A stretch of 58,437 nucleotides of DNA, the filler included, from Basidiobolus ranarum (taxonomy: Eukaryota), in NCBI GenBank assembly GCA_040143965.1. It is 3 parts of 3 records of this genome, joined end to end, with 100 filler letters (N's around TTAATTAATTAA, not from the genome) between each part and the next. Parts side by side here need not be neighbours in the genome. Positions count along the whole stretch, not along the records: positions 39,085 to 58,437 come from JASJQH010000252.1; 2 more parts are not named here. One strand, 5' to 3'. The first letter of the stretch is position 1. Each line of letters begins with the position of its first letter. Below the pieces are notes generated by a model. The model was not told the DNA's origin. It worked only from the letters and a program-made list of their open reading frames with translations, and ran no database searches. Both the position numbers and the translations under genes were made by a program. This document shows, piece by piece, positions 19,450 through 58,437 of this stretch.

Positions 19450-19549
19450 NNNNNNNNNNNNNNNNNNNNNNNNNNNNNNNNNNNNNNNNNNNNTTAATTA
19501 ATTAANNNNNNNNNNNNNNNNNNNNNNNNNNNNNNNNNNNNNNNNNNNN
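19450..19549. other. Artificial contig-join spacer
   Basis: 100-nt N run with central TTAATTAATTAA (stops in all six frames). Confidence 0.97.
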
Positions 19550-38984: not shown

Positions 38985-39084
38985 NNNNNNNNNNNNNNNN
39001 NNNNNNNNNNNNNNNNNNNNNNNNNNNNTTAATTAATTAANNNNNNNNNNNNNNNNNNNNNNNNNNNNNNNNNNNNNNNNNNNN
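38985..39084. other. Artificial contig-join spacer
   Basis: 100-nt N run with central TTAATTAATTAA. Confidence 0.97.
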
Positions 39085-39387
39085 CATCATCAAAACTTCT
39101 TGAACAATATGGATGATGACCTTGACGAAGAGGATATAAATATTGTCAACACAGCGTTCCAAAATGCCGGAATGACCGGAGGTTACAAACCCCGCAGACG
39201 AGGTCATTTAACTCCAGGACCTCATGTTACTGGTGTCACGCCTGAAACGTTAAAAACAGGTCGGAATTCGATAAAGAGAAACAGTAGTTCTGACGATTCC
39301 ACTAGCCAAGGATTTGAACTTAGCTTAGATCAGGCGACGTTGTTAAGTAGAAGAAAAGGAAAGGCCGATGAATCGTCATCGGATTAA
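39085..39387 (+). CDS. 3' fragment of an unidentified protein with a low-complexity charged tail
   Basis: Frame open from the gap to TAA 39387; protein-like composition (DDDLDEED..KPRRRG..SSSDDS). Confidence 0.55.
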   Translation, partial: HHQNFLNNMDDDLDEEDINIVNTAFQNAGMTGGYKPRRRGHLTPGPHVTGVTPETLKTGRNSIKRNSSSDDSTSQGFELSLDQATLLSRRKGKADESSSD

Positions 39388-40489
39388 AGTCGAAAGAACG
39401 AGGAAATGTAATCATTATATTTTGAGAGGGCAGTTTTTGATTTCAATCCAATAGACCATGTAAGTGACACTTTGTCACATACATTCACTTGACACACTAT
39501 GTTTTCAAACGGGGAGCATAAGGATGCTTGATAAATATTAGTAATTCCTTTAGCAGCCTTACTAACACCAACTTGATTGTGCACCAACTTTGAATCAACC
39601 CTTTTTTTATACAGTCACTGAATCCACCCACCATTAGTAAGTGGTTCCCCAAGAATACAGTTTTTGAACTGAACTGGTTTCGGGCCAAGAATCAGTCAAT
39701 AAAAGCCGCTTGATTGAGTCGAGATTTTCTTTTCAGTTACCTTACCCTAAGAAAAAGTTCTTGGACAGAGAAAATTTAGGTAGAAATAGGCTATTAGGAT
39801 TCAATTCCTCGAATACTACATAAATATCAAAGGGTGATTTTCTTTGCACCATCTCTACGTCAGTATAAGTATCAATTTACTTGATGATAGTCAAATCTTG
39901 GTTGGTTTAGTCTCCAATTTCCAAGTACGTTTTTATATTGCATATACAAATGCTGAAGAAGGATTAGAGAGATCAATTGGCCTCACAATACTTGTATGTG
40001 CTAGTATAGATTATATTTCAACGCATGTGATGATTCTTGAATCAAGGAAGTTCATTTCGTTACAAATTCCATGAAAATAAGTGGAATGATTTGGTTTTAG
40101 GATTCCTTCAAGAGATTACTGGTTTATAAAAGTTGATAAATACCAAGGAAGGTAGTTATAACCAACACTGAATATAAAGGGAAATCCAAACTCTCGAGTA
40201 CACCAATTTCTTGGATAAATGAAATTTCAAGTTTGAATTTTATTGGGAAAATAAGTGAGTATAGTGACTGACATGATAATGAATAAGTAAATATAAAGCT
40301 CACCAACTATTCGAAAGTTATGGATTTAACGATTCAACTGATGCCAAAGTCGAAAAGTTATAGTGAGATCAAGGGTATCACAAATGAGAATGAATATACA
40401 TAACGACTAGGTATGAAGGAATACAGTTGTCTCACCTCAGGAACATCAAGTGCTCCATGGGAGTTAATCGATGCCAGGCCGATGTATGT

Positions 40490-43400
40490 TCACTTTCGGA
40501 ACAAGGTGGGGAAGAACTCGATTATTAAGTTCAACTCATCTAATAACTGTTGTTGAGCTTCATTCTGGTTTCGACTACGAATCCTGCCATGAGGTGCATG
40601 CATCGACGAATTAATGCCAAGATACTGTTCGATCGCTTCGATGATTCTCAAAGTCTGGTCAAATAATTTGTTACTAGTGACAACACTAGAAGATACATAA
40701 TCAAAGCTAGGTCTCCGAGATTCAACAGAATTAGGCGTACGAGGAGAGTTGGGTGCACTATGATGGGATAAGCCCAAGGGCTCAGTATTTACAGTTAGAT
40801 TGGAGTTCTTGCGTTGTCGGAAATTTGATTCCGTTTCAATATTAATCGTTGGTGGGTCCTGGAATGGATTTTCATTCTGTGGAGAATTGGAAAAATCTGG
40901 CGTTGTGGGTTTAGATGAGGAAGAAAACGGGCTCGGCGATGGGGTCAGTCTATCAGACTTGGAATACTTGCCTTGGCTCACTAGTGGCCTAGATCCACCC
41001 CAGGGCTTCCACTTGGGCCTACTATATGCTGATTCAGGTGAGGATATTCCAGGATAACGATTTGGACTCATGGATTTTACTACAGTATTACGGAAATGAA
41101 CCACCCCACTATTCGATTGTAGCTTGATATGCAGATAGGACTGGAAATAGGGAAAAGTCGGGTGCTGGTAGAGTGTAAGAAATTCGAGAAAGGACCACAT
41201 CACATATTCAAATGGCTTCAGTGAGACCGATGGGTCGGGAAGAAACCCTTTAACGGGAGACGGAAGGATCGATGCAGTTGGGCTGGGGGGAACATCATGA
41301 GAGCCTGAGCCTGCTTTAGGAGACCAGATTGATTGATGGTTATCGCTATTAGCGTCAATCAGTTGGCTTGTTGAAGCAAGTCGATGAATGAAGTGGGATA
41401 AATCTGCCCAAATCCCTGCATCGGCAGCGAGGTAGCAGTCACTTCGGAGCATGGTAATCTTCAGTGCAATAAAGTGAAGCATCAGCATTGCTGAGGCTGA
41501 AAATGTGTGCTGTGTGAGTGATTGGGTAACTGATTCTGTACTACTTGCTTCAGGCATGGAGGATATCTGGAGATTAGAAAGAGACGAAAGCTTGGACAAA
41601 ACGTCCACTGCACGAAGACAGTTTCTCGTCAAGAACTTGATAATGTTCATCCAATGTTGAATGGCTCGCTGCTGCCCCTCTTTGTCAAAGAGTGGTGATG
41701 TGCGAACCAGATAGGGGCTGACATCCAGTCTCAAACATATAGGGATTATTATGCGTCTCATGGTGATGGGCGAAAGTATAATTTTGTTTAACTCTTCAAA
41801 AGTATCTACCTTAGTATACACAGTCATTACACAGAAAAGATTGACTAAAGTATCGCAAAAGGTCACGAAATGTTTGTGTCGCTCGCCAATCTCCTCACGT
41901 GTGATTATGGAAAAGCTGGGATTGATGAATCTCTCCAGTAGCATGTGGTAAAAGCCCGATTTCATTCTTTTGTGGTAGCGTTGTACGACAAGAGTGATGC
42001 TTTGTAAGATTCCACTAAAATCGCACGACTTTTGGTAGGTTCTCAAAGTAGGTGCTAAGTGTTTGAATATTATGGACATTGCAGAGCTGATCTCTTCGAT
42101 ATTCTTAAGTGGAAATATCGTCTCGACGATAAAATCTCTGATCCAATCGGATGAGACGAAGCCTTTGATTGTATTATAGTCGCGTAAAACCGATTTGATA
42201 ATTGCACTGAGACTTTCGTACTCCACAGTACTAAGTGGGAATCCCAATTGAGCATAAGTTTGAATCAACTGTAGAAACTCTACTTTGATGACTACGTGGT
42301 CGTTTTGCTTCCAATTTTTCTTGCGTGTGGTATTCGTATTAAAGGTGGTACTCTGTTGTTCGAAGTTCATGTCCTCATTAGCAGCTCGGTAAACCATTCC
42401 ATCTATTGATTCGAAATTGTCATGCTTATCTCCCGTTGAAACTGGTTTAGCGTTTCGTGAAAATTTGTAGAAAACATTGACCAAGGCAACAATTCCCTCA
42501 ATGACCAAATTCTTGACTTCATGGCCTTCTTTCACAAATAAAGGTAAAAGATGGGGTAATATTTGTATGAATTGTTGTGCACGTAAGGAACCGGGATCAT
42601 GGGCTATAATAGTCATAAATAGTTTAAAGAGATCTTCGATAGTGAAGTTACTTTTTCTGTGAGGTAGAGTATTACGTAGAACAGCTGCTGCCGAAGTCGA
42701 TGCTTTTGTGAGGTTTTTGACTTGAACTTCAGGCATATTATAGATAGCAGCGTCACCTTCAGAGGTTATTGCCGAAGTGGCGACGCCAAGACGATCAGAC
42801 ACAGGTTGTTCTCTAAGGACTTTCATTAATTTGAAGTAGCATTTGACTAAATGGGTTCCAAATTCTTTTGATTTAGCAAAGGACTTGAGTATTATGGGTA
42901 TCAAGCTTCCCATCGCCTGGAAAATGAAGGATTCTTCGTGAATTTCATAGAATCTACCCCAAGCATATTCAATACTAGAACGTATGGTCTCAGTTGTCTT
43001 TGCTTCGCAGTAGGAACGGAATAGGGCTGGTAGGAATAAGAAGTAGCCTCGACTTGATTTAAACATTCTTTCGAATTTTGTGGCCGTATTAATGTATAAT
43101 ATGATGGCTTGAGCTGCCAAGCCAAGATCGTTAGGATGGCAATGGAGTACATTATTGACCCCAGCTATAATTCGACTGAACTCTTGACGATCATGATATG
43201 TTGAGTGTACCGAACGGAACAGCACTTCAATATACCGAAGCCAAGCCCTACATTGAAGGGTGGAGATAGAATGCAGACCAAGTGAAGATTCTGCATCCCA
43301 ATGTTGATCCTCGAATAACTCTTGGAAGTATGGAGCAATCTTCGGGAAGAACTCCTCCTCAGGGAATCGATCAAGTCCATCCCAGATTGAGCTCTGAATA

Positions 43401-46400
43401 TTTTTCCAAGGAATAGGTGTGAAAAGTTGTACCATTTTTCTCATGAGTTCGACTTCATGGGGGTATCGTTTAGCAAGGCCAGACATAAAATGAGTTTGAC
43501 CTATTCTTACTGTAGCAGCGAAAAATACCTCGGAAGGGACTTTGAATGGGTTCATATCGAATGGAGAGAATTTCATATCACTTCCGCGGGGAAACATAGT
43601 GTTTGGCGTTCCATCAGTAAACCACAATTGCCCACTAGGTTGATAATACACGTCGAGTTTATTCTTTCTAAACTCACGTACAGACAACTGATTGGTTGAA
43701 GGGACGATTTCGGCAAGCAGAGGAGCTACGTAGGAGAATATCTCAAGCCCCTCGTTCTTACCATCACGAGAGTACCATCTCAAATATCCAAGAAGATAGT
43801 TGAACAATACAAAGCCAAATTCTGGTGGACCTTTCTTGTGATAGGCGACAATATTGAGTAGTTTGCTCAAAAGCTCCTGTTGATGGGAAATTTTTGAGTT
43901 TGTCATTCTTTCGAAATATAATTTCAGGAATACGTTGGGATCATCTCGAAGGCAATAGAGAATTGTATTATCAGCTGCAGCTCTTACTGATGAATTCTTG
44001 TCGAATGCAAGCTCTAAGAGTTCTTGCGATATTATCTCAAGAATCGGTACTGTAACAATGGGCACTGGTCTAACTCCACTAGAGTTCGAGGCGTCGTTTA
44101 ATGGCTCGCTACTGTTTAAATATAAAGTTGGCAGTAAGGTAAATGTTTTTCGAAGATCCACATCTTGTTCCGTTTCGCTTTCATCTTCCCAACCAAGCTC
44201 TTGAATCATCTGGATCTCTTTCAAGGAGGTACCATGGTTTCTTAATTGAAGAAGCCATTCAGGAATCTCCGTTGTTGGCTCTGGAGAACCAAGATCTGTT
44301 GGAACAAATGGTAACACTGAGCCAAGGTTGCGAAATGGCCGCGCGTTAGAAGCGTCATGGACATATAACTGAACATTGATACGTAAACGCTGCGAAAATG
44401 TTACATATAGCTTTGTAATTGCATCAATCTTAGATTCTCCGTTTTGACTACGAATGTAATATTTTCGAAATCAGTATACACACAAAACCATACATGAATT
44501 AAATGATCAATATCTTACCTATAGAGCTTTTCTCTCAAAAACGATTGCACTGTTATACTATATTTCTCTGCAAAATGATTTAACAAAAAGGCAGAAGTTT
44601 CCAGTTTAAGTTGATAAGAGTCTGCTAATCCATAATCCCATATATATTGTAAAAATGGGATTACTTCTTCTTCGCGTATACACTGGTGAACAGTGACGAA
44701 TAATTCAAGAATTCTACTGCTTAAATCCCAGGTCTCATGTTGGAGCTTCTCAGCTTTAGCTAGAGTTGTCTTAGAGGTTGGTGCAACTCTTAATATGTGG
44801 CCCATCATTTCAGTAGGATTTTGAATCTGTTCCATCGTAGGGAAATCTAGTGCCTCAACTCCTTGCTCTGCACTGACTCTGGTGTCTGCAGCCTCTTTCC
44901 TCTCCCTCCTGGTTGAAACGCGAGTCCCGGATGACCACAGTATGGTGGTGAATTCGAAACTAGGAGTGGAGGGGCCAGTGCTCGACCAACCATTCAAAAT
45001 TTCTGAGCTCGAATAACTTTGGGATCTGTTACTTTGAAGCGCCTAAAGATAGAGGTAAGTATTGCTCCAAGTATTTAAGATTATGTATATAAAATACCGT
45101 AGCAGAGGATTCCTCTTGAAATTCATAAACCTCCTTCATCTTGAGGTAGCCCAAGTTGGAATTATCGGTCATCTTTTCTTCTGGGTCACCTTCCTGGGAG
45201 GCTTGATCATTCTGTGTCGGGTCAGTATTGGTTTGATAAAGCCAGGTCATGATTTTAGACATCCAGATAGGCCTGATAAATAATGGGTTAAAGAGAACCG
45301 CAACATATATATATATATGATATTAAAGGAACCTTGAGGTGTATCCGGAATACAATCTTATTTCTCTGAATAAACGACAGAGCATTGTCTTAAAAATACT
45401 AGGAATTACAACACCATCCGTAATAGCCTAATTCAAATAAAATTAGTATCCATTTTGATATACAAATCATGAGAAATCTGTTTACCCAAGCCATCAAATA
45501 TTTTGCCAATTTCTTTTCGAGATCAACCAAGAATCTTCGGTGCGTACGTTTAACCTCTCGATCATGCTAGTAAATAACTTGTGATAAATAGGCTGATTAA
45601 AGATTCGTATCCTTTTACTTTAATCACTTACTGAGTTACTTTTCGTTTCTCGAAGACTTTGAATAGACCAGATGACTTCCTGCATCAAAACTAACTGACC
45701 TAAGGTGATTTGTTCACTTTTCACCTTTTGTGGTCCTTCATTTTTGGTATGTGATGGCTGTTCTTTCCTAACATTACTAAGTAATAGGACAACGATCAGA
45801 TCAACATCGCGAAATAATAATTTCTCTGGATTTATCAGCTGATTCAAGGAGTCAAAAAGATGGAGAAAACGCGCGATCTTCTTTTTTGAATTAGTTCTCA
45901 CACATGAGACAAACGGTTTGTAGAACTGAACAGGATAATCAACAGATAATCGAAGAAACAATTCCTGTAGCTCCGAATACCCTGTGAAATGCGTCAACCC
46001 CGAAAGTTTCTAGACATGTATTGAGTATTTGTGGGATTTTAATGATTTTGCTCCTATCTCAACTTACTACAAAAATATCAGGTAGCGTATTTTGAAGCAC
46101 CTGAGCACCGATAGAGGGATTTATTTCGTATACTAAGTGTTGATAAAGACCAACGATTTGTCTTAAATCCTCGCGTAAAAGCTACAACGTAGAGTTAGAA
46201 GAACTGACTTGAGATTGATAGTATAAACTATACACATACCAGTTCCTTTATGGCATTCACCATTTCTTCCTTACGTCCAGAATCCCAGAAATTACATAGA
46301 TATGTATCCAGCAGATATCCAAGTTGCATTCTACTTTTACTTTGTGAACCATGTCGAGATGAATTGATAGAGTCATTAGCCCTAGTCAAGTCATGAGCTC

Positions 46401-48509
46401 TTTGATTAAAGAGGAGCCCAGTAATGAGAAACCGCGCCAACGCACTGTAAGTCTCTGATAGAGTCTTCAAGTGAATATCCGCGGGGACTCTATTACATAT
46501 CAATTTCGCAATCATATCAGGTAGAGTGCCAGATGGCATATCAGAATTGTACCCGGCAATTGAAGGGTCCGACATTATCCTTGAAGCTAAAATATGATTA
46601 GAAGATGGGCAACATGAAGTAAAGAATTTGTGTGATGATTACCTGATCTAAACAATAAATTCAACACATGCTCATAATAAGGAGTATGTGGAAGTGACGG
46701 AGTAAAGTATTCCTATAGAGAAAATGATAAGTGACTGAGCTTGGTTCCGCTAAAGAAATGGTTTATATTACATCATTTAGCAAGGTAAGCACCAGCTTTC
46801 TAACCTCGAAGCTATTATGTCGTAGACACAAGATCAAACCCTCGATGACGATATACTTCCCAATGGAATCTTTATCGCTAATTCGTAAATTACTTGAATC
46901 ATTGATTGATATGTACTCTCCTTCATTCCTAAAGACCATGCAGGTAAGCAAATCGTTCCCGTATAATATTTGAACAAAGGAGAGGGCTTTTTCTCTCAGG
47001 CGATGATTTTCTTCATTGTTTACAAGATTGGAAGAATGTGCGGGTAGCGAGATCGCAAGTACAAACACTATAATGTGTATGATGGCGTGTATAACAGGAA
47101 TGGTCAAGAGATGCTCGGGGGTATTTAAAACAGAATCAAATATCGATTCAAAAATACTAAATGCCCGAAGCTGGTGTAAATCAGAATAGGGTTGGTATTT
47201 TTAACTAAAACATTATTCTTGGAAGAAACACACTAACTTTAACCAAAATATGCTTTGTTGTTAATCGGTGAGCACCCCATAAAATCATCGAATGATATCC
47301 CTGCGATTCCAAGTTAGCATTTAAACAAGACAACAACGAATGCAAGGAACACTTACAATCTCGTCGAATTGGAAATTAGAACGAAGGAACTCGAATATAT
47401 CAAGCGACAGCATACAGTCTTTGACTATTAGTTGAAAAAGCAACCATGTGAGAGATGATTCATAGAAGGTAACAATGCTGATATACAAGTACCGTTGATG
47501 TGTTCCTGATAAAACGGTATAGCCAATTCGCTTAGAATTTCTGCCATATATGGTACACTTGTCATATTCTTATTTTTTTTCAGAATGGACCATAATTTCT
47601 CCAATGATGATTCTTCTGCGAAACTGGTTTGACCTCCTATGCTTATGTTTCCCATCGAAGTCCATTGATCTCTGGATTTGGAAGGATTCCCCGCTATAGA
47701 GGCATTATTTTGCACTGTATTGCCATTTCGATGTATTTTGGACTCGGTAAACAGATACTTATCTAATTCCCGTTGAAAAGTGTGATCCCGTGTCTTAGTA
47801 TGACTCGATGCACCAAACCATGAAAAGTCTTTCGTCCGTTCACTCGACGAAACCCTCTCCTCAAAACCAACACTTTGCCTAACGGAAGGTGTTTGAGAGG
47901 AAAGATGTGATAAATTGGTCGAGTTCCTTTCAAGTCTCTCTGTTAAATCTGTAGGAGTTGGGGATAGCTGTGAAAGATCTCGAGAGTGTGATTTCAACTC
48001 CAATGTGTCTAATTCTACTGGGTAAAAAGCAGAGGTATTTGCATCTTCAACATTGGTGGTATCTTTGAAAGGATCTTCTACAGATTCTACTGTTGCCACT
48101 AGGGGCTCCGTGGGAATTTCTTCTGTTGGTTCAGAAACAACATTAAGACTACTAAGGTACTTCACTATCTCTTGATGTTTTTTTTCACTTATAGACTCAA
48201 GCTTTAACTCTTCCTCGTACCTCTCCAGCTGCTTAGATATCTCAAATCTTGTTGTTTCAACAATATCTTTAATGAAAATCATTAATCACGGCTTGGGTTA
48301 ATATAATTGTCTCTCTGTATCCTTGATGGATACAGCTGTCATCCAAACATACCTGAATGAACATTTATGTTATCGTATGCTCTGTTTATCAATTTTCGGA
48401 GATTTTCTATTTCACTGCTACTTGCAAAGATTTGGTTGTCTGAGGTAGTTAAAATAGTGTTATTTAATGGTGGATTGTCTTCAGAAAGTGGTACTATTGG
48501 TGTACTCAT
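40490..48509 (-). CDS. UNC80: UNC80-like large HEAT/ARM scaffold (NALCN/Cch1 channel auxiliary subunit homologue), multi-exon, over 2000 aa
   Basis: Chain of same-strand exons from MSTPIVPLSED (48509) to a ~3.9 kb terminal exon. ILYCLRDDPNVFLKLYFERMT..PPEFGFVLFNYLLGYLRWYSR and GYFLFLPALFRSY..IEYAWGRFYEIHEESFIFQ match my recollection of the animal UNC80 C-terminal blocks (CL.EDP..F.EKLT..LFNYLVG; AIE.A..QFY.LH.KPF.LQ). Confidence 0.78.
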
Positions 48510-48967
48510 TTCTGGGAAGATACAACAAGAGGTAACAGGAGTGTAGTGTGGTAAGTTTGCTGATATGATTATTCTGCGGTATATACAGGGTTTTAACCTA
48601 AAATTAGACAATTGCAAAAAATAATTAGACAATCATAGAAAAGCATGTATGGAATTAGAAGACATTCATAAACAGTCACAACAAACTATGCAAGTCTGAA
48701 TGATATCGATATATTAGCTAGAATCCTATAATTACCGTTAAGCTGCATGAGCTTATGTATACTAATACTTGGAATACCAAAGTTGGTAATTTGGAATATA
48801 TGGCAAAGTTTAGGTTATATTTGTTCATTTTCTAGATTAAGCGATTTCTTGGATTTCTATTAAAAATGTCTAAAAATATCATCAAACTACTATCACAGGT
48901 ATTAGGGTTTTATTGATCCAAGTAGATAAGATATATCGCAACGTTTGAGATAATGGTCTAAGAGAAA

Positions 48968-50206
48968 TTAGGCTACGGTAGTACCACTGACACCTTCCTC
49001 CTGTCTTTTCTATTAATTTAAAATAATGTTAGTGTTCATCTTGTAACTTGCGCCATTACAACTTGAAGTGATTACTCTATCTAATTCGGCCTTGGTCTGC
49101 TCTTCAATATTACGAATATCTTCTATGGTTAATCCGTACCATTGATCCATCAAACAGAAGAGTTGCTTATGGAATTTCAATAATAAGTTTCTCATGATCT
49201 ACGAAAATATGACAATAACGATTAAGACAATGGCCAGATGAAGAGGTTTTAATGGCTCACTTACACCATGAATAAATGCCTCTACTCGGGTTTGAAGGCC
49301 AAACCATTGGAATTTAACGGTGACTAACTTATAAGCAGTCATAACAGGTTCACAGGTTTTCTAGAAAATCCGAATAGATTAGTAAAGGTCACTTCGCTAA
49401 TTCATGTTACGTTAACAAACGAATTACCATCCAGTCTCCGGTGAGAGGACCTCTACCAGTTTTTTGCGATTTAAAGAGAGTAGGGTCTTGCTCGGGGTTA
49501 TAATCATTTTTATCAAGTTGATCCTTGGCAGCATCCATTATCACAATCTCACGCTTTTTTAAAACTTCTGGCGAAGCACGTACTGCCTAAATAACTAACA
49601 TCAGGCTAACATTCTGAAGATATAGAAAGTGTTTATACCTACATTTTCCAAACCACCTCTATCATCAGGAACGTGCATAGTTTCGGTAATAAGTTCAAAT
49701 TTGTCTTTCATGTATCCGTTCTGAAGAGGAATATTACTATTAATTATTTTACCGGGGTCCTGTTTAAAATAGACTTACAGTAACGACTATATGTTTACAA
49801 CAAAAATCAGTTCAAACATATACTATGATAAATTATAACTGAGTGGGTGTTAAATACCAGTTTTGCAATGGGGATAGGCATTCCATGCTTTTTCCTCGAG
49901 AATTAAAGCACCTGCAGGTGCAAGAGCTCGGACCCAACCGGGAACTTTGCTGGGATGAAGACTGTTGGTCGCAGTGGTTTAAGATGTCATGTTAAGAGCT
50001 AAATACCTTGAAAGATGATATATTTTGTGGGTGTATTGCCCCTTGTTTCCAAAGTCATCGACATAGGGTTCATTTTTTAGCACTTCGACACCTTCACCTC
50101 CGCCCGTCTCGGCTTTCGATGCTTCGGAGACAGAAAAAAGCTGAGCAATTTTGTATTCCTCTAAAGTACAATTAGTAGTGAATCGGTATTCTTTAATGAG
50201 AGTCAT
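48968..50206 (-). CDS. Class I START-fold phosphatidylinositol transfer protein (PITP alpha/beta-like), multi-exon
   Basis: [115 protein letters not shown]. Confidence 0.96.
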
Positions 50207-51609
50207 CGTTTTCGTTTAACAAGGGGATATCTATTGAGAAGGCAAGATGCAAGATATAAGAATCAGCTAAAAACAAGTCTTCTAATTGTCGTGAATTGAT
50301 GATACAATAATATGACACAACCCAATCACCAAAACAAGCATCAATCAGCTTAACCCATTCAAGTAATCATTAGATATGATTGGCTCTTTCGTGGGTATCT
50401 ATGCCATTAGGCTTGATTAAATACCCATCCGATTGATATAACAAAAACCAGTGGTAGGCTCCTAAAACGAGGATAATTGTACTTCTAATATCGAGAACAT
50501 GGGATATTTTTGTAGATGTAGAATTGAAAGGCCAGAGTCGGAATCCTCGAAAGACATCTGGTGTGGAATGTTTGCCTTCAATTCGATATGAAAGAGACTG
50601 ATGTGCATGCTATCCGATTGTTATTATTCTATCCTAAGCTCATCAAACCAACTCTGACATGCAAAGGGTGAGGTAATATACAGGCCTGGTATGAATGTAT
50701 GCACTATACCAACCTCTTTCGATGATGTAAACGATGCGATACCATTGCATCCCCTAGCCCCATACACAGCAAATCGATAACGTCAGATCAAATTGCCTCA
50801 GGCTGTAATAAGTGTAGTAAACAGACACCTGGAGTAGTGATGCCAAGCCTTAGTCGAGTGCTCAGTTCTTGAATCGGATTGAGTGGAATGATTCCATTTG
50901 AGGACATGGTTTAATAGAGATATTGAATGCCTTTTTTGGTTGACTTAATGTTGTGGGCCCATGTTCTTATCAATCCACCTGGATCCGTTCTTTCTGGATA
51001 TCCAATGTCCTGTTTACTATGTTATCGTAGATGCGTTCAGTAAGGCTCTTGGCACTGCAGAGGCTCTGAGAGTTAAGTTCGCAATATACTTGTTCCCTGC
51101 CGAAGTCTCAATCACGTGTTCTCTCCAGACTCCCTATAATTAGGCAAATCCTGCTAAAGCCAGATTGAAAGTGATTCATTCGTACTCAAAAGTTGGATCC
51201 AGTCACCTGGCCCAGCTTGTCAATGATAATAACATCTTCCAAGTATCCTCAGGATTCCATTTGCAGATGGTTGAGGCTATGATTGTATAGTTGTAAGTAA
51301 ACATTAAACCATACAAGGCTATGCTTGGCAAATGAAGAGATCTATCTGAATCTTACCAGTTAGTACCCGTGTGACATAACCTAGGATGAAATTATTTGCA
51401 TTCCAAATACAGGAGAGTTATGATTGATCATGATAATTACATCATGATTGCATAATCGCCGCTTATTAGTTAAGTTAATCACCACCATAGAGCAGTTGAT
51501 GTTTTGTATTGCATTTTGGACAGATTCCAAACTTCATATAAGGAAGGAAAAGTTCCAGAAATTTGAGAAGTAGACATTACAGAGAGTGCAAGCTTGGGGC
51601 TCATAACCT

Positions 51610-51841
51610 GTTGAAGTATTTTGGGAGTTTGTGGAAGTGGTTTGGAGAACTAGAAAGAATAGATGCTTTTCTCTTATTGATTTATTGAGTTGGAAAACTG
51701 ATATTTATAGTTTTGTCAATAGGTAAGCAAAAAACGTGTAGAATGTGTTAAGGAAGATCCCAGGAACATGTGTGCAAAGTTTGGGGCTTCTAGCACAAGT
51801 TTGAAAAATCTATATATCTGAGAACTTCCAAGTAATTTCCT
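51610..51841 (+). repeat. Dispersed repeat, copy B
   Basis: Direct repeat of 52000-52230 (shared gtgcaaagtttggggcttctagcacaagtttgaaaaatctatatatctgagaacttc) and inverse of 1570-1790. Confidence 0.88.
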
Positions 51842-51999
51842 CTTGACAATAGTGAGTGATATCTTCAACACTTTCCAGTCCAAGATCTAAATTGCAAGAG
51901 CATAAGAATTGCTATTGAGCTTAGTGCCATATATCTCAGGTATTCAAAGCATTCTTTTGACATTCATACAATCAAACCACACAGTTGCAAGTGATAATT

Positions 52000-52392
52000 G
52001 TTAAAGTATTTGGGAGCCTGTTGGAAGTGGTTTGGATAATTAGAGGAATTGGTGGTTTTCACTTATTGATTTATTGAGTAGAAAGTTGAACTTTATAGTT
52101 TTGTCAAGATATAAACAAAAAAACGAGTAGAATGTGTTAAGGAAGGTCCCAGAAATATGAGTGCAAAGTTTGGGGCTTCTAGCACAAGTTTGAAAAATCT
52201 ATATATCTGAGAACTTCTAAGTAAATTCCTCATGAGAATAATGGATAATATCATAGTGAAATATAAGATAACCAAGTACTAAGCTATATATGACTATATA
52301 GGTGCTCAGGCAATGCTAGTTTCAACAATATATAGCTTAGTATTTAGTTATCCTGACTATATAGGTGTTTAAGCAATGCTAATTTCAACAAA
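52000..52392 (+). repeat. Dispersed repeat, copy C (longest, with an internal duplication)
   Basis: Matches copy B and the inverse of 1470-1790; tgactatataggtg..gcaatgcta.tttcaaca occurs twice (~52291 and ~52354). Confidence 0.88.
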
Positions 52393-52573
52393 TACTTTGA
52401 GAAAATGCTTAACGAGCTTTAGAGAAGCTTCAGCAGATAGTATTGCTAGAACGAGAGTGGTGAATCTTTAAGGAGTTTTGGACAAACCCTGGATTCTTAT
52501 CTCATCATATTTTTATCAGATTTTCAAAAATTATAGGTTATTAGATATAGCTGTGATAGCTCCCTAAAAACAT

Positions 52574-52593
52574 GTAGTAGTAGTAGTAGTAGT
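52574..52593. repeat. (GTA)n microsatellite
   Basis: gtagtagtagtagtagtagt. Confidence 0.8.
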
Positions 52594-53564
52594 TAGAAGC
52601 TCTTAATGTAGTAGATTTGTTCCTTTTTATCTTGTCAGATAGATCTTCGTTGATTTTGGTCCAAGTCATCCAAAATACTATCGAGTTTTCTCAAGTTTGA
52701 GCAACTACGATGTACTTTGCTCTATCATACTATGCTAAAGTACAATAACGACAGGATGGATCGAACACCTTTCCAGCAATAAGCAACAACACGGCTGATA
52801 ATATTCTGTGCTTAGTGGACTGTTACAGGTATCTCATAATGCTTACCCTGAAAGTTTCGAATACAGTAATTTTGTTTGCAAATCTTAGAAGAGTGAGATC
52901 GTATAACCTACCTGATCGTTGCTGCTAAATCAATAACAGTAACCTGGTGGATTCAGGGTGTGGAAGATATCTTACTCGATGTTGGGACTACTCAGTATTG
53001 CATGCATGGCAGGTTGCATGTTTGCAATTGCGTTGTCTTTTGTCTGATGGTTTCAGTTGGGCTAGTTGTTGGCATACACCCTAGGTCTTAGCTTATTAGT
53101 TCAGACAGCTGACCCATAGTTCTATATATGTCCGTAGACTAGTCCCCCCTCAAATATCGTGATAAGCCGACGAGGGGTCATCGATGTATTGATTCACTGA
53201 TGCGAGCGCTATCAGTTCTCTAATAATATAAATCTGGCTATGGTTTGGCAAATACTGGATAGAAATCAACAACGCATGGGTTTCACTCCATTTAATTGAC
53301 TCAGGATGTGTAGCACTCATGTACAATAGGTAGATCAGCATATACACTTTGATGGAGGTTACGTATGGATGTCAGTTCTAATCTAACCATTGAAATCCTA
53401 GTTTCCTATTATATGAAGAATCTACAGATCTGACTGGTTTTACGGAGTACTGATTACTGGTGACATAAGCTAGGCCTGGCCATGATCATTCCACCATAAT
53501 ACCTAAGTCCCATCTGTTGCGTATACAGAAGCCAGCTGAAAGCATTGGAAATGGTGTAAATTGC

Positions 53565-53572
53565 TATAAATA
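53565..53572 (+). promoter_or_regulatory. Candidate TATA box for the flavin oxidoreductase
   Basis: TATAAATA about 70 nt upstream of the ATG. Confidence 0.4.
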
Positions 53573-53633
53573 AGGCTGCATTGTTGGAGTCAGATTCCAC
53601 TGGTGATCAACAAGCAACCATTTTAACCTTTAA

Positions 53634-55099
53634 ATGTCTACTTGTAACTTCAAAGAGACCCAATTTGTACAGCCTCAAACCCCACCTGCGGGTACCCAGT
53701 TAGCTGCAGAAGAAAAACAGCTGCCGAGGGTATTTTGTCCACTCACCATAAGGAATATGACTTTGAAGAATCGTTTCGTTGTTTCACCTATGTATTGCCT
53801 ATTTCATATCATCTATTGTTTACACTTAAACTCAGAGTATCTAACGAAATGGATATCCTATTTCTTAGGTGCATGTATAGTTCCAACGATGGTTTTATGA
53901 CCGATTTTCACCTTGTACACCTGGGCTCCTTCGCTATTCGCGGAGCCAGTCTAGTGTTTTGTGAGGGTACAGCCGTTTTACCCAATGGTAGAATTACACC
54001 CTATTGTGCAGGTCTTTGGAAAGATGAACAAATACCACAGATGAAACGCATTGTTCAATTTATTCACTCTCAAGGGGCAAAAGCGGGTATTCAACTCGCT
54101 CATGCTGGCCGAAAGGTTAGACTTGATGTATTTCTGTTCAATACCTGACTCGCATAACCATGAGATGTATCGTTATACAGGCTTCCACTCTTCCATCATT
54201 TATCGCTGGTAGTAGTGCCTCTCGATCTGTTGCCACAGATATGGAAGGTGGTTGGGAAAAAGAAGTCTGGGGGCCATCGGCAATTGAATGGGACAACGGT
54301 TGGATTAAACCTCACGAAATGTCTGAAGAAGAGATCAAAAGTACACTTAAGGCATTTACCGATGCCACTCGTCGAGCACATGAGGCAGGGTTCGATGTAA
54401 TTGAGATCCATGGAGGTAGCTAGCAAAGATTACTTACTGCATCTTTGGGCAATTCTACACATTTCTAACCATATTCTAGCACATGGATATCTGATTCATT
54501 CATTTTTGTCATCCATTTCCAACCAAAGAACCGACAACTATGGTACGTTAGGCTCCACGTCCGAATCCCATTTTCAAACCTACTAACTTCCTCGGTGAAT
54601 ATTTGTAGGTGGTACTCTGGAAAATAGGATGCAATTCGCCTTAGAAACTGTACAAGCAGTTAGGGAGGCTTGGCCATCGGAAAATCCATTATTTTTCCGT
54701 CTTTCATGCAGCGATTGGGCTCAAGGTGGTTGGGATATCATCCAGTCCGTAGAACTAGCCAAAAGGTTGGCTAATATAGGTGTGGATTTACTTGATGCCT
54801 CTAGTGGTGGGAACACTCCACTTCAACAGATCCCTGCTAAACTAGGATATCAAGTGCCGTTTGCATACGAAATTAAAAACCAAGTACCCGGCCTACTCAC
54901 CGGAGCAGTTGGATTAATTACCACAGGTGAGCAGGCGGAAGAAATTCTTGAGGAAGGGAAAGCAGATATTGTTATTCTTGCGCGACAGTTTTTAAGGGAT
55001 CCTAATTTTGTTCTTCGTTCAGCTTTTGAACTTGAAGTGCCAGTGAAATGGCCACAACAATTCGATCGAGCCCAATTTCATCGATCGTCTAAAAAATAG
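53634..55099 (+). CDS. NADH:flavin oxidoreductase / old yellow enzyme, YqjM-like class, 5 exons
   Basis: LKNRFVVSPM|CMYS, GRITP...GLW, GIQLAHAGRK|AST, GFDVIEIHG|AHGYLIHSFLS..NQRTDNYG|GTLENR, GYQVPFA, RQFLRDP. Confidence 0.95.
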
Positions 55100-56544
55100 C
55101 TTCTCTTTCACCAGATGATACCGAGTTCAACTTTTCTGAAGATATTCGTTCTATTTTACTCTAATACCTCGGGTAAATAAAATCATTGTTTTGCTTTGCC
55201 AACATGTAAAATCCAAGCTGAATATTAGCTCTGCCATAGCTCAATAAATACTTCATCAGTCATATTTTTGGGAGATACATCTGTCGATTCGGCATCATAA
55301 CTGAAGATGTGAGGAGCTAGGATCTGTCAACAACATCATTGCCAATAATGGTGATGTCTAATTTTAGCACGGAGATTAGAGCTAACTGAATTCACCTGGA
55401 AGTTGATTACTCTACTGGGTGGTTGATGCCGAAGTCCAACATCCCCCCCTCCATGTCAACATCGGTTACCTGGGATTGCTCTACACGACTCCTCCTATCC
55501 CAAGGCGAATTCTAGCTTTTAGCTCATATTAGCTGGGCTCGACTAAATCCATTATGTCTTAGCATTGGAGAATCGATGAAGTGGGGATGGTAAATAAAAT
55601 GGTAGATGGTTATCTGAAGGACTCTATAAAAAACCCATAGAATAGAAAATATTGTCCAAGCATCAGCTACGCAAAGAGTTTGAAGAATGATGTTCTAATT
55701 CTAACGCACACGAGATCTTATCGCTACTAAGTACAGATACATCCATCGTTCAATGTTTGGATCAAATTGAAATGTACAACGAAGTATAATTAGTGAGAGT
55801 ACTTTATTCGAAAGATATCTCAAGTCTAAGATCTGAGCTTCTCCTTCTTTGCCTATAAGATAAGTAAGGAGACACCGAATACATTAACAAATTTAAAATG
55901 AACACCAACAGCACGTCCTTCATGATAGAAACCGGAGATGAGCACTTCATCATTTCCTCTCACAAAATTTTAAACAATTAGTATTGGTAACGAAAATGAT
56001 GATCTTTTTCCAATTCTTGACTAGATGAATTTGGTCACACAAATAGCAGAGTTGGGCTGTTTTGTTTCAATCGTTTCGAGGATAGCGTCTTTTGCGTGAG
56101 ATGGACTACCGAAGGGAAAGTATTTGAAGGCAGTACCACGAGCTCACTTTTGTATTGTTTGTCAGCTCTACATTCTTTAAAGCGATGATTACGACTTGCT
56201 TGAAGTCCTTCTTGGCTTTCCTTTACTCATGATCCATTGCAAGTGCTTCAGTATGAGAGGTGTTTTTGTAACGTGGGTAACTTCAATGAATAGACCAAGT
56301 GAAAAACTTGAACCGAAGTGTGGAGTGAAGAGGTGTAGCTTCCATAGCAGAGAAAGTTGATCCGTCATGAGGGGTCACGCGATATCAAATAGGAGAGGAT
56401 TCATGGATGGCCCTTGATGGAGCACTTATGACTGAATCATTTTGTCCGGTTTGGTAACATAACAATGAAGTTGTAAGAAAGAGACAGAGAAATACTGACG
56501 ACCTAATACCTGTCTTATGCACTCAATCGCTATGAACGAATTAA

Positions 56545-56836
56545 GACCTGTGAACATGTCTTTAACTGCGAGAAATGCCATGGAGAGTACTTTTACTATG
56601 GAGCCACAAATGTTGTGCTTCTATTTCACGGGAACTGTGTGAAATTAGCAGTGAAGCAGTAAGATATTATTCATTCTCAAACTGGAATCCGCACCTTAGA
56701 TGGAGATTGGTATTGCCCACTTGAAGGATGTGGGTCCCTTTTTTCGAAATGGTTTAGGAAAACTAAAGAAACAGGCTTGGTCAAATGGTTGCAGAGGCCC
56801 CTTTTTCAAATAGATTCAAGTGATCAATGGGAATAA
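56545..56836 (+). pseudogene. Possible decayed PHD/zinc-finger-like coding remnant
   Basis: One frame reads TCEHVFNCEKCH..FHGNCV..Q*..GDWYCPLEGC with one internal TAA; spacing is not canonical. Confidence 0.25.
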
Positions 56837-57327
56837 TTTAGTAATACTCTTTGAGACTTTTCAAACCAACCCCTCCTGCTATTTGTGATTGTTGCTGATG
56901 AAACCGGCGTATTACCTGTGTCCCTCTAATCAAAAGGGCTTTCATCATGTTGTTCATGTAGTGACTATGACCAAAAACGAACAGCCATGTCTTAATCTGG
57001 TTTAAGAGGTAGAGTCTGAATCCCTTGAACAAAACGGCGACAATGACGAACTCAGATTCTAAGCTAAACTACACCAAGACATTAATTTACATGGCACAAA
57101 CACACTCGAAAATCTAGCACATGATTTTCATTTTAGATGGCAAACTACTCTATAAACACTGTTTGAGATGTGGTATAGCCGAGATACCACTAGGAGTACC
57201 AGTGAATCTTTGCACCAACCCTCTTCACATAACCTATATAAACACCATGACCACTTAAACCAGAAATGAACCTCCTCTCTTAACCAAATCCATACTTAGT
57301 TCCCATCCCCGAACAGCTGGAGCTTCT

Positions 57328-58437
57328 ATGTCAGAACTATCCAGTGTGTGTTTAAGAGGCATTTTCAGATGGTTAAAGAATGATCATTTTAATTTGTACC
57401 GGTGTTGTCAGGTGAATCGTCGATGGTTCGAATGCTCGGTTCAACTCTTGTATGAACATCCATGGACGATCTTTTGTGACCTGGATACCAACCCAGAGGA
57501 ACTATTACGCTTCGAGAAGTTACTCAAGATACTACTAGAGCGTATTGAGACTACCCAGCAAAAAGGATACAAAAGAAAAAGGACCATATCTCAGCGACTC
57601 ACACCCAGTCCATTGTTGACCGGAGCATCCAAAATAGTTAGAAAGTTAAGCTGCCACTTCACCTCATGTGTTTCCGATCCTGAATACATTCATGAAAAGT
57701 CCATATCCAGTTACCGATCCTCATCATCGTTTTCTCCCTCTCTTGAAACATACCAAAACTATCCATCCTTAGTAAAGGACATGGATTTGAGATGGCTACA
57801 ACAGGGCCTTCAACATGTCAATCATGCGCAGTTCTATTCTTCCAAAGTACTACCTGAGGTATTTATTGAGAAACTGTTGCAACGATTCTGGATCCCGTTT
57901 CGGGACAAATACTCCTCCTCTTTAGAGAAGTTGTATTGTGGAATGACAATTCCTTTGGACCAGATCTTTACTTTGAATACCAAGTACTCAGTGCTAAGCT
58001 ATTTGGACTTGAAAATGGTGGACTTTGATATGGAGCATGCCACCATTATCTCTAGATCTTGTCAACTATTGGAGGGAATCAGGATTAGCACTTGCATCTC
58101 CGTCTTTGACCTTGGATTGGCCAAAATTCTCGCCTGTCAACAGCCGAACTCATTCAAGGAGTTAATCATTGAGTGTCCAGAACCTCTCTCCATATGTCAT
58201 ACCGTCAGCACTCTGCTTCACTTTCATCGACAAAGCATGACCACAATTAAATTCAATTTCTATCTTTTCTCACTCCCTGATACATGTAAAAACAACGCAG
58301 CCATCGGTGCTCTCAGCCAGTTTACCAATTTAAGATGTCTGGAGCTGCGGGGATGCCCCAGTGCCAACGATGAAAGTATGGAGAGAGTGGTAGAGGTATG
58401 TTCACTTACCAAGGTGGTACTTGAGAGAACTTCTCCC
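57328..58437 (+). CDS. F-box / leucine-rich-repeat (RNI-like) protein, runs off the window end
   Basis: Manual translation MSELSSVCLRGIFRWLKNDHFNLYRCCQVNRRWFECSVQLLYEHPW (F-box-like); later LSYLDL and LRCLELRGCPSAND (LRR-like). TATATAAA at 57235. Absent from the ORF track because it has no stop. Confidence 0.82.
   Translation, partial: MSELSSVCLRGIFRWLKNDHFNLYRCCQVNRRWFECSVQLLYEHPWTIFCDLDTNPEELLRFEKLLKILLERIETTQQKGYKRKRTISQRLTPSPLLTGASKIVRKLSCHFTSCVSDPEYIHEKSISSYRSSSSFSPSLETYQNYPSLVKDMDLRWLQQGLQHVNHAQFYSSKVLPEVFIEKLLQRFWIPFRDKYSSSLEKLYCGMTIPLDQIFTLNTKYSVLSYLDLKMVDFDMEHATIISRSCQLLEGIRISTCISVFDLGLAKILACQQPNSFKELIIECPEPLSICHTVSTLLHFHRQSMTTIKFNFYLFSLPDTCKNNAAIGALSQFTNLRCLELRGCPSANDESMERVVEVCSLTKVVLERTSP

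What the first reader, a model, noticed from the sequence alone, without database searches (positions are those of the whole stretch)
40490..48509. Fungal UNC80 homologue: possible animal-style NALCN/Cch1 channelosome in an early-diverging fungus
Seen: an ~8 kb multi-exon gene for a >2000-aa helical protein whose C-terminal blocks (CLRDDP..FERMT..LFNYLLG; FLPALFRSY..IEYAWGRFYEIH..FIFQ) resemble animal UNC80. Established: UNC80 with UNC79 and FAM155/NLF-1 regulates the neuronal sodium-leak channel NALCN; fungal Cch1 and Mid1 are homologues of NALCN and NLF-1, and budding yeast has no recognised UNC80. Inference: this lineage keeps a fuller ancestral channel complex with untested function. The match is from memory of the family, and fungal homologues may already appear in recent phylogenetic surveys.
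Basis: partly seen in the sequence, partly recalled or inferred. Interest (0 to 1): 0.75.

Follow-up and report, generated by a model that had tools for sequence, protein, structure and literature searches.

The report
Fungal UNC80 channel scaffold, already known
This is an intact fungal copy of UNC80, the giant scaffold that controls the nerve-cell leak channel NALCN in animals; such fungal copies, working with the calcium channel Cch1, have been in print since 2024, so only its duplication in this fungus is new.

Summary
Window 48509..40490 (-) is an intact 14-exon gene. It encodes, letter for letter, a public 2,400-aa Basidiobolus ranarum protein. It is UNC80: Pfam UNC80_C E 1.6e-39, only UNC80 among significant PDB sequence hits, and Foldseek TM 0.57 against at most 0.23 for other listed HEAT solenoids. 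The genome also holds one UNC79, one Mid1, about four Cch1-type channels and a second UNC80 at 41% identity. The channels have no Lys in the filter, which points to Ca2+. One aligns through NALCN's UNC-binding motifs UNIM-A and UNIM-B. Best reading: cytoplasmic adaptor of a Cch1-Mid1-UNC79-UNC80 calcium channelosome. This is known: Boucher 2024 purified the complex from Cryptococcus, and Senatore 2025 surveyed fungal UNC79/80, with Conidiobolus in the supplement. The scan noted a mushroom UNC79 before. Not found in the papers searched: a Basidiobolus-specific UNC80 duplication beside two old Cch1 types (filters EEEE and QDEE), and UNC80 in Pucciniomycotina. Binding and expression were not shown here.

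The parts
40490..48509 (-). UNC80 gene (one of two paralogues in the genome): 14 exons, 2,400 aa, intact
   Evidence: P0001 maps without mismatch; PF20262; PDB and Foldseek
48353..48509 (-). exon 1 (aa 1-52)
   Evidence: boundaries read from the printed flanks
47493..48266 (-). exon 2 (aa 53-310): polar, Ser/Pro/Thr-rich N-terminal stretch (probably disordered, inferred), then the first conserved helices
47357..47424 (-). exon 3 (aa 311-333)
47238..47300 (-). exon 4 (aa 334-354)
46772..47170 (-). exon 5 (aa 355-487)
46643..46712 (-). exon 6 (aa 488-510)
46240..46586 (-). exon 7 (aa 511-626)
46068..46181 (-). exon 8 (aa 627-664)
45632..46009 (-). exon 9 (aa 665-790)
45486..45566 (-). exon 10 (aa 791-817)
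45333..45427 (-). exon 11 (aa 818-849)
45098..45272 (-). exon 12 (aa 850-907)
44519..45042 (-). exon 13 (aa 908-1081); the profile alignment to animal-type UNC80 starts here (aa 1006)
40490..44447 (-). exon 14 (aa 1082-2400): helical solenoid matching UNC80, then a Ser/Pro-rich tail
42529..43369 (-). best-conserved block (about aa 1442-1722); aligns to mouse UNC80 2197-2448, which holds 9 of the 11 residues named as contacts for the NALCN UNIM-B motif
   Evidence: coordinates are my arithmetic from the ORF numbering

Best explanation
The gene encodes an orthologue of animal UNC80, a HEAT/armadillo solenoid. Most likely it pairs antiparallel with the genome's UNC79. The dimer then docks on the cytoplasmic loops of a Cch1 channel: UNC80 grips the II-III linker motif (UNIM-B) and UNC79 the I-II linker motif (UNIM-A), with Mid1 outside the membrane. 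By analogy with mammals, docking promotes delivery of the channel to the plasma membrane and its activity. Because no filter here has a Lys, the flux is most likely Ca2+ feeding calcineurin stress signalling, as in Cryptococcus. Shown here: gene, identity, fold, presence of partners, conservation of docking residues. Inferred: binding, trafficking role, ion and pathway.
For: Identity: PF20262 E 1.6e-39. A 49-row fungal profile hits three UNC80 chains at E 1e-72 to 2e-68, the next hit at 0.005. hhalign of 76 fungal-clade rows against 4 animal-type rows: probability 100, E 2e-52, 1,054 columns from aa 1006. AlphaFold2 model of aa 1082-2131: pLDDT 78, pTM 0.74. Foldseek ranks 1-4 are the UNC80 chains, TM 0.49-0.58, against at most 0.23 for ranks 5-50. 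Partners: UNC79 on C465 (PF14776 27.4-30.9 bits, cut-off 27, plus a C1 domain as Boucher describe for Cryptococcus Unc79); Mid1 on C6883 (E 3e-40); four-domain channels whose nearest named relatives are fungal channels, many named Cch1. Docking: the C57 channel aligns to NALCN 316-670 as one stretch. 3 of 3 named UNIM-A contacts and 10 of 11 UNIM-B contacts face an identical or hydrophobic residue, while Cav/Nav matches stop before the motif. Precedent: reciprocal AP-MS of Unc79, Unc80, Mid1 and Cch1 and shared mutant phenotypes in C. neoformans (PMC11526942).
Against: No binding, expression or function was measured for this organism. The N-terminal 1,000 aa match fungal UNC80s only; no match to animal UNC80 was found there. 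On the UNC80 side the groove is only partly kept: of 9 alignable contact positions, 1 is identical, 4 are conservative hydrophobic changes, 1 is Tyr to His and 3 are non-conservative. The UNC79 Pfam match is barely over the cut-off and its Atlas hit (0.88) is a lead only. Senatore et al. cite reports that Cryptococcus Cch1 and Mid1 formed channels in vitro, and yeast lacks both scaffolds, so the scaffolds may be modulators rather than obligate in fungi. With two UNC80 paralogues, this copy need not be the channel-bound one.
Confidence: 0.8

Rival explanations
1. Division of labour: the two Basidiobolus UNC80 paralogues share one UNC79 but serve different pores (EEEE-type or QDEE-type Cch1), giving distinct channelosomes.
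For: The paralogues are 34-41% identical, form a Basidiobolus-only clade (SH-aLRT 100; FastTree 1.0), and each has an orthologue in B. meristosporus at 75-82%, so both have long been kept. The two Cch1 types are 35% identical. They differ in filter and in docking motifs: the QDEE type lacks the UNIM-A Trp and has Ala-Ala at the F662/M663 positions.
Against: The duplications are not of the same age: the Cch1 split predates the zygomycete phyla, while the UNC80 split is Basidiobolus-specific. Mortierellaceae carry both Cch1 types but showed one UNC80 clade among the hits. The paralogues differ little at the nine groove positions.
Confidence: 0.2
2. UNC79-UNC80 here is mainly a channel-independent scaffold or trafficking module, as may hold in protists that have the pair without Mid1.
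For: UNC79/80 occur in lineages where FAM155/Mid1 was not found. Groove residues are only partly conserved. UNC80 is present in Pucciniomycotina, while the Rhodotorula Cch1 rows show no UNIM-B-like motif.
Against: The channel linker keeps NALCN's UNC-binding motifs. The Cryptococcus proteins co-purify with Cch1 and Mid1 and share their mutant phenotype. Whether Rhodotorula itself has UNC80 was not tested.
Confidence: 0.08
3. The complex conducts a sodium leak, as vertebrate NALCN does.
For: Full subunit set and NALCN-like linkers.
Against: Filters are EEEE (C57) and QDEE (C6941), with no Lys. Lys is the feature tied to Na+ permeation in the passages read.
Confidence: 0.05
4. A generic HEAT protein of another family, or a dead or contaminating copy.
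For: A weak INTS1_R4 hit (E 0.006, under cut-off). Generic HEAT families score 0.90-0.91 in the Atlas, just below UNC80_C at 0.94.
Against: All significant sequence, profile and fold hits are UNC80. The frame is intact with canonical introns. There is a congeneric orthologue at 75-82%. GC is like the rest of the window.
Confidence: 0.01

Closest known systems
Cryptococcus neoformans Unc80 (CNAG_01613) in the Cch1-Mid1-Unc79-Unc80 complex (Boucher et al. 2024, PMC11526942; passages read)
   Same: Over 2,000 aa, HEAT repeats, UNC80 C-terminal Pfam hit; the partner UNC79 has a C1 domain; Cch1 and Mid1 are in the same genome. A Cryptococcus sp. homologue aligns at 20-23% identity.
   Different: One gene for each subunit is described there; here there are two UNC80 and about four Cch1 in two types. 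The authors saw no orthologues outside basidiomycetes. Nothing was tested experimentally here.
Fungal UNC80 of Mucoromycota, Agaricomycotina and Conidiobolus (Senatore et al. 2025, PMC12412391; sections 5 (part 1), 11, 13 (part 1) and 14 read, supplements searched)
   Same: Same family: Rhizophagus irregularis 35% over the conserved region. Conidiobolus coronatus KXN70411 is in their Data S12 and among my hits.
   Different: Basidiobolus is not named in the text, Table S1 or the 34 supplementary files as held (long tree lines are cut in that copy). The parts read mention no fungal UNC80 duplication, and 'UNIM' does not occur in the preprint text or the supplements. They call UNC79/80 lost in Pucciniomycota, whereas 3 named hits here belong to that group.
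Mammalian UNC80 of the NALCN-FAM155A-UNC79-UNC80 channelosome (PDB 7W7G, 7SX3, 7SX4, 7WJI; Kang and Chen 2022, PMC9098444, passages read)
   Same: Same solenoid over about 1,050 residues (TM 0.57). The best-conserved block is the UNIM-B groove. The cognate channel keeps UNIM-A and UNIM-B.
   Different: About 900 aa shorter; 16-23% identity; N-terminal and central Pfam families not detected; 3 of 9 groove positions changed non-conservatively. The pores lack the Lys of vertebrate EEKE. UNIM-C and CIH were not examined.

Membership tests
UNC80 family | Pfam UNC80_C (PF20262) above the gathering score | tested here: met
   136 and 131.6 bits against 22.1
UNC80 family | Best hit among solved proteins is UNC80 (sequence and profile) | tested here: met
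   only UNC80 chains are significant
UNC80 family | Long HEAT/armadillo solenoid superposing on UNC80 | tested here: met
   Model of aa 1082-2131 only; Foldseek TM 0.49-0.58, E down to 4e-17; next family E 8e-6
UNC80 family | Animal-type N-terminal (PF15778) and central (PF19424) regions | tested here: inconclusive
   No hit in P0001-P0003; the Rhizophagus homologue hits PF19424 (E 3.7e-7) and aligns to P0001 154-859. Likely divergence; other accepted fungal members (Conidiobolus) also lack these hits.
UNC80 family | Groups with fungal UNC80s in a tree | tested here: met
   (quick IQ-TREE, SH-aLRT only; 28 picked rows)
NALCN/Cch1 channelosome | UNC79, Mid1/FAM155 and a Cch1/NALCN pore encoded in the same genome | tested here: met
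   no NALCN sequence was in my channel tree
NALCN/Cch1 channelosome | UNC-interacting motifs A and B on the channel's cytoplasmic linkers | tested here: met
   C57 channel: 3 of 3 and 10 of 11 named contacts. C6941 channel: UNIM-B weaker, UNIM-A Trp absent.
NALCN/Cch1 channelosome | UNIM-C and the auto-inhibitory CIH | not tested
   The NALCN alignment ended at residue 670; not examined further
NALCN/Cch1 channelosome | Physical UNC79-UNC80 heterodimer bound to the channel; effect on current | not testable with these tools
   Needs purification or electrophysiology; shown for Cryptococcus in PMC11526942
Vertebrate-type sodium-leak NALCN | Lys in the selectivity filter (EEKE or EKEE) | tested here: not met
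   EEEE and QDEE

The most novel reading that the evidence does not exclude
Basidiobolus builds several different channelosomes from one UNC79 and one Mid1 by combining two long-diverged UNC80 adaptors with two ancient Cch1 pore types: an EEEE type kept in zygomycete lineages and closest in its docking motifs to animal NALCN, and the QDEE/NEEE type that Dikarya kept. UNC80 would then choose the pore. The EEEE type would be the nearest fungal stand-in for the ancestral, Ca2+-conducting NALCN complex.
Probability: 0.2. Interest if true: 0.55.

Novelty: new member of a known kind. Interest (0 to 1): 0.22.

Why it matters
The headline claim, a full NALCN-like channelosome in fungi, is published, so this gene adds a taxon rather than a concept. 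Its side results bear on questions that Senatore et al. leave open: whether the contacts between subunits are conserved, and where the scaffolds were lost. The sequence evidence here says the UNIM-A and UNIM-B docking code predates the animal-fungal split. It also says UNC80 survives in all zoopagomycete branches sampled and in Pucciniomycotina. A genome with two adaptors and two pore types offers a natural swap experiment on what UNC80 does.

Tried and rejected
1) Complex prediction of UNC80 aa 1380-1860 with the C57 channel linker aa 986-1037 returned 'no answer' (score 0.00, alignments not used, partner fold uncertain). It counts neither for nor against binding. 2) Whole-channel PDB searches at E 1e-150 and 1e-130 returned nothing because the thresholds were too strict. 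A 72-aa I-II linker query alone did not find NALCN; UNIM-A is visible only inside the longer alignment. 3) The channel fragments' top PDB scores went to Cav3.2 and Cav1.2 through summed repeat matches. I did not take them as Cav: NALCN gave the longest single stretch and the nearest named relatives are fungal channels. 4) Co-loss of the linker motif with UNC80: the motif is missing in Ustilago, Kalmanozyma and Rhodotorula, but UNC80 turned up in three Pucciniomycotina, so I dropped it as evidence. 5) Co-duplication of UNC80 with the two Cch1 types: rejected on timing. 6) The careful IQ-TREE run did not finish; only SH-aLRT values are given. 7) The UNC79 homologue search found a single relative, too few to fold it. 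8) A word-start supplement search missed Conidiobolus because names are glued in the headers; it was repeated with 'anywhere'. 9) Liebeskind 2012 is not held and was not read, so it may already describe the two Cch1 types. The journal version of Boucher et al. was not found. 10) No gene-neighbourhood signal: the flanking genes are unrelated. 11) No earlier scan note matched by sequence. 12) No RNA reads were examined, and the N-terminal half was neither folded nor searched in the Atlas.
Full report
Observation. A homologue search returned a 2,400-aa protein that NCBI names as a Basidiobolus ranarum hypothetical protein and UniRef as a UNC80 C-terminal domain protein (P0001). P0001 maps onto the window without a mismatch in 14 blocks. 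The printed flanks give 13 GT..AG introns of 55-86 nt and 7,203 coding bases. The gene is intact. The model is a prediction; no transcripts were seen. The window is three contigs joined by N spacers, so only 39085-58437 is real context. The neighbours there are a phosphatidylinositol transfer protein and a flavin oxidoreductase, with no link to the channel.

Identity. Pfam UNC80_C scores 136 bits against a cut-off of 22.1. The whole protein hits three PDB sequences, all UNC80. A 49-row profile raises these to E 1e-72 to 2e-68, with the next hit at 0.005. Profile-profile alignment of 76 fungal-clade rows to 4 animal-type rows (one named insect protein; three unnamed, called animal-type from length and tree position) gives probability 100 over 1,054 columns from residue 1006. 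An AlphaFold2 model of residues 1082-2131 (pLDDT 78, pTM 0.74) finds the four UNC80 chains first, TM 0.49-0.58, against at most 0.23 for ranks 5-50. Against this: Pfam's N-terminal and central UNC80 families are not hit, and the first 1,000 residues align only to fungal homologues.

Partners in the genome. UNC79: one locus on C465, PF14776 just over cut-off plus a C1 domain. It is 23% identical over 1,600 columns to a Dacryopinax protein with a weak UNC-79 hit, and no second copy appeared with two further queries. Mid1: one locus on C6883. Four-domain channels: 29 Ion_trans matches, of which the best resolve into C57, C276 (+C356), C6941 and C9088 (+C953). The joining of split copies is inferred from complementary coverage at about 70% identity. 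A second UNC80 lies on C101 at 41%. The assembly has 13,754 contigs and the search scores only the best candidates, so copy numbers are lower bounds.

Docking surfaces. Kang and Chen (PMC9098444, passages) name the NALCN residues that bind the scaffold: UNIM-A (F351, W359, L361) on UNC79 and UNIM-B (11 residues from V644 to I667) on UNC80. The C57 channel aligns to NALCN 316-670 as one stretch. UNIM-A positions read Leu, Trp, Ile. Ten of 11 UNIM-B positions are identical (2) or hydrophobic (8), and P656 faces a gap. With the linker as query, the five NALCN sequences match at E 3e-7 to 6e-7 through the motif, while all Cav and Nav matches end by query residue 32. The motif's Pro, Val, Pro and Lys are at least 90% invariant in 43 fungal channels. 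The C6941 channel has a weaker UNIM-B and no UNIM-A Trp. On UNC80, the best-conserved block aligns to mouse 2197-2448, which holds 9 of the 11 named contact residues. One is identical, four are conservative hydrophobic changes, one is Tyr to His (Tyr in the paralogue) and three are non-conservative (106 rows). The channel side is thus well kept and the groove partly kept.

Ion. The filters read EEEE (C57) and QDEE (C6941), with no Lys. By the filter rules in the passages read this points to Ca2+, not sodium leak. This is inference.

Distribution. A search of 1.84 billion representatives found 287 proteins at E up to 0.001 and listed 150. I looked up 30. Twenty-two had an organism name, all fungal: 1 Basidiobolus, 10 Mucoromycota, 3 other zoopagomycetes, 3 Pucciniomycotina and 5 Agaricomycotina (group placement recalled). 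Eight were unnamed. In trees of the core region (106 of 155 rows passing a coverage filter; 28 picked rows) the two Basidiobolus paralogues form one clade with full support, each with a B. meristosporus orthologue. The duplication is therefore old but genus-specific. A tree of 34 of the 103 channel hits (FastTree, no NALCN row) splits fungal Cch1 into an EEEE clade (Basidiobolus, Zoopagales, Mortierellaceae, Blakeslea; support 0.98) and a Q/N clade that includes Dikarya (0.97). That split is older than the UNC80 duplication, so co-duplication is not supported.

Mechanism. Most likely this UNC80 forms an antiparallel dimer with UNC79 that binds the I-II and II-III linkers of Cch1, helps the Mid1-bound channel reach the surface and supports Ca2+ entry upstream of calcineurin (0.8). 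Shown here: gene, family, fold of the C-terminal half, partners and motif conservation. Taken from mammals and Cryptococcus: binding, trafficking and pathway. Rivals: paralogue-specific pairing with the two pore types (0.2, compatible with the main reading), a channel-independent scaffold (0.08), sodium leak (0.05), another HEAT family or a dead gene (0.01).

What is known. Ghezzi 2014 (PMC3945613, passages) dismissed fungal UNC80 hits. Boucher 2024 (PMC11526942, passages) identified Cryptococcus Unc79 and Unc80, showed reciprocal co-purification with Cch1 and Mid1 and a shared mutant phenotype. Senatore 2025 (PMC12412391; sections 5 part 1, 11, 13 part 1 and 14) traced UNC79/80 in Mucoromycota, Agaricomycotina and protists. 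Their Data S12 and S14 already include the zoopagomycete Conidiobolus. Basidiobolus is absent from their text, Table S1 and all 34 supplementary files as held (long tree lines are cut in that copy). Searches pairing Basidiobolus with Cch1, UNC80 or NALCN found no description of this gene, its duplication or the two Cch1 types. The library lacks most subscription papers, including Liebeskind 2012, and the bioRxiv supplements were not seen. An earlier scan note on a mushroom UNC79 reached the same 'already described' verdict; I checked the papers, not that gene.

Verdict. Observation confirmed and interpretation supported. It is a new member of a known kind. Interest 0.22: the central idea is published, and what remains is a genus-specific duplication, sequence evidence that the docking motifs are ancestral, and a correction to the published loss map.

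Noticed in passing
window 19450-19549 and 38985-39084: The window is three contigs of about 19.4 kb joined by N spacers; the second spacer, which I read, has a 12-base all-frame stop linker in the middle. Only 39085-58437 (G000:C252) is the true neighbourhood of the gene.
   Followed up: yes
window about 49013-50203 (-): Multi-exon phosphatidylinositol transfer protein of the IP_trans family (PF02121; 4 of 5 exon frames hit), about 500 bases upstream of UNC80 on the same strand. From recall this is the animal-type PITP, distinct from yeast Sec14.
   Followed up: partly
G000:C101 (L027:2-5315, -): Second UNC80 paralogue. It runs off the contig end, and its intron layout differs (one 969-codon frame spans five introns of the window gene). 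NCBI annotates a 962-aa piece of it.
   Followed up: yes
G000:C57, C276+C356, C6941, C9088+C953: Two Cch1 types, each apparently in two copies at about 70% identity (two copies are split across contigs; the pairing of the pieces is inferred). Filters EEEE and QDEE. In a 34-row tree the EEEE type groups with Zoopagales, Mortierellaceae and Blakeslea channels, the other with Dikarya Cch1.
   Followed up: partly
P0186, P0145, P0146: UNC80 homologues named from Cronartium, Atractiella and Meredithblackwellia (Pucciniomycotina, placement recalled), a group in which Senatore et al. report loss.
   Followed up: partly
P0181, P0239, P0149, P0178, P0135: Long-branch UNC80 homologues from unnamed metagenome records that fall near the zygomycete sequences; possibly unsampled early fungi.
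   Followed up: no
window 3231-37890 and 53648-55099: Ordinary genes by Pfam: CAP protein, eIF2D, tyrosinase, polyubiquitin, DEDDh exonuclease-like, formyltransferase, ORC6, DRG-type GTPase, GMP synthase, old-yellow-enzyme oxidoreductase.
   Followed up: no
window 39085-about 39820 (+): A gene fragment at the contig start, convergent with UNC80, with no Pfam hit.
   Followed up: no
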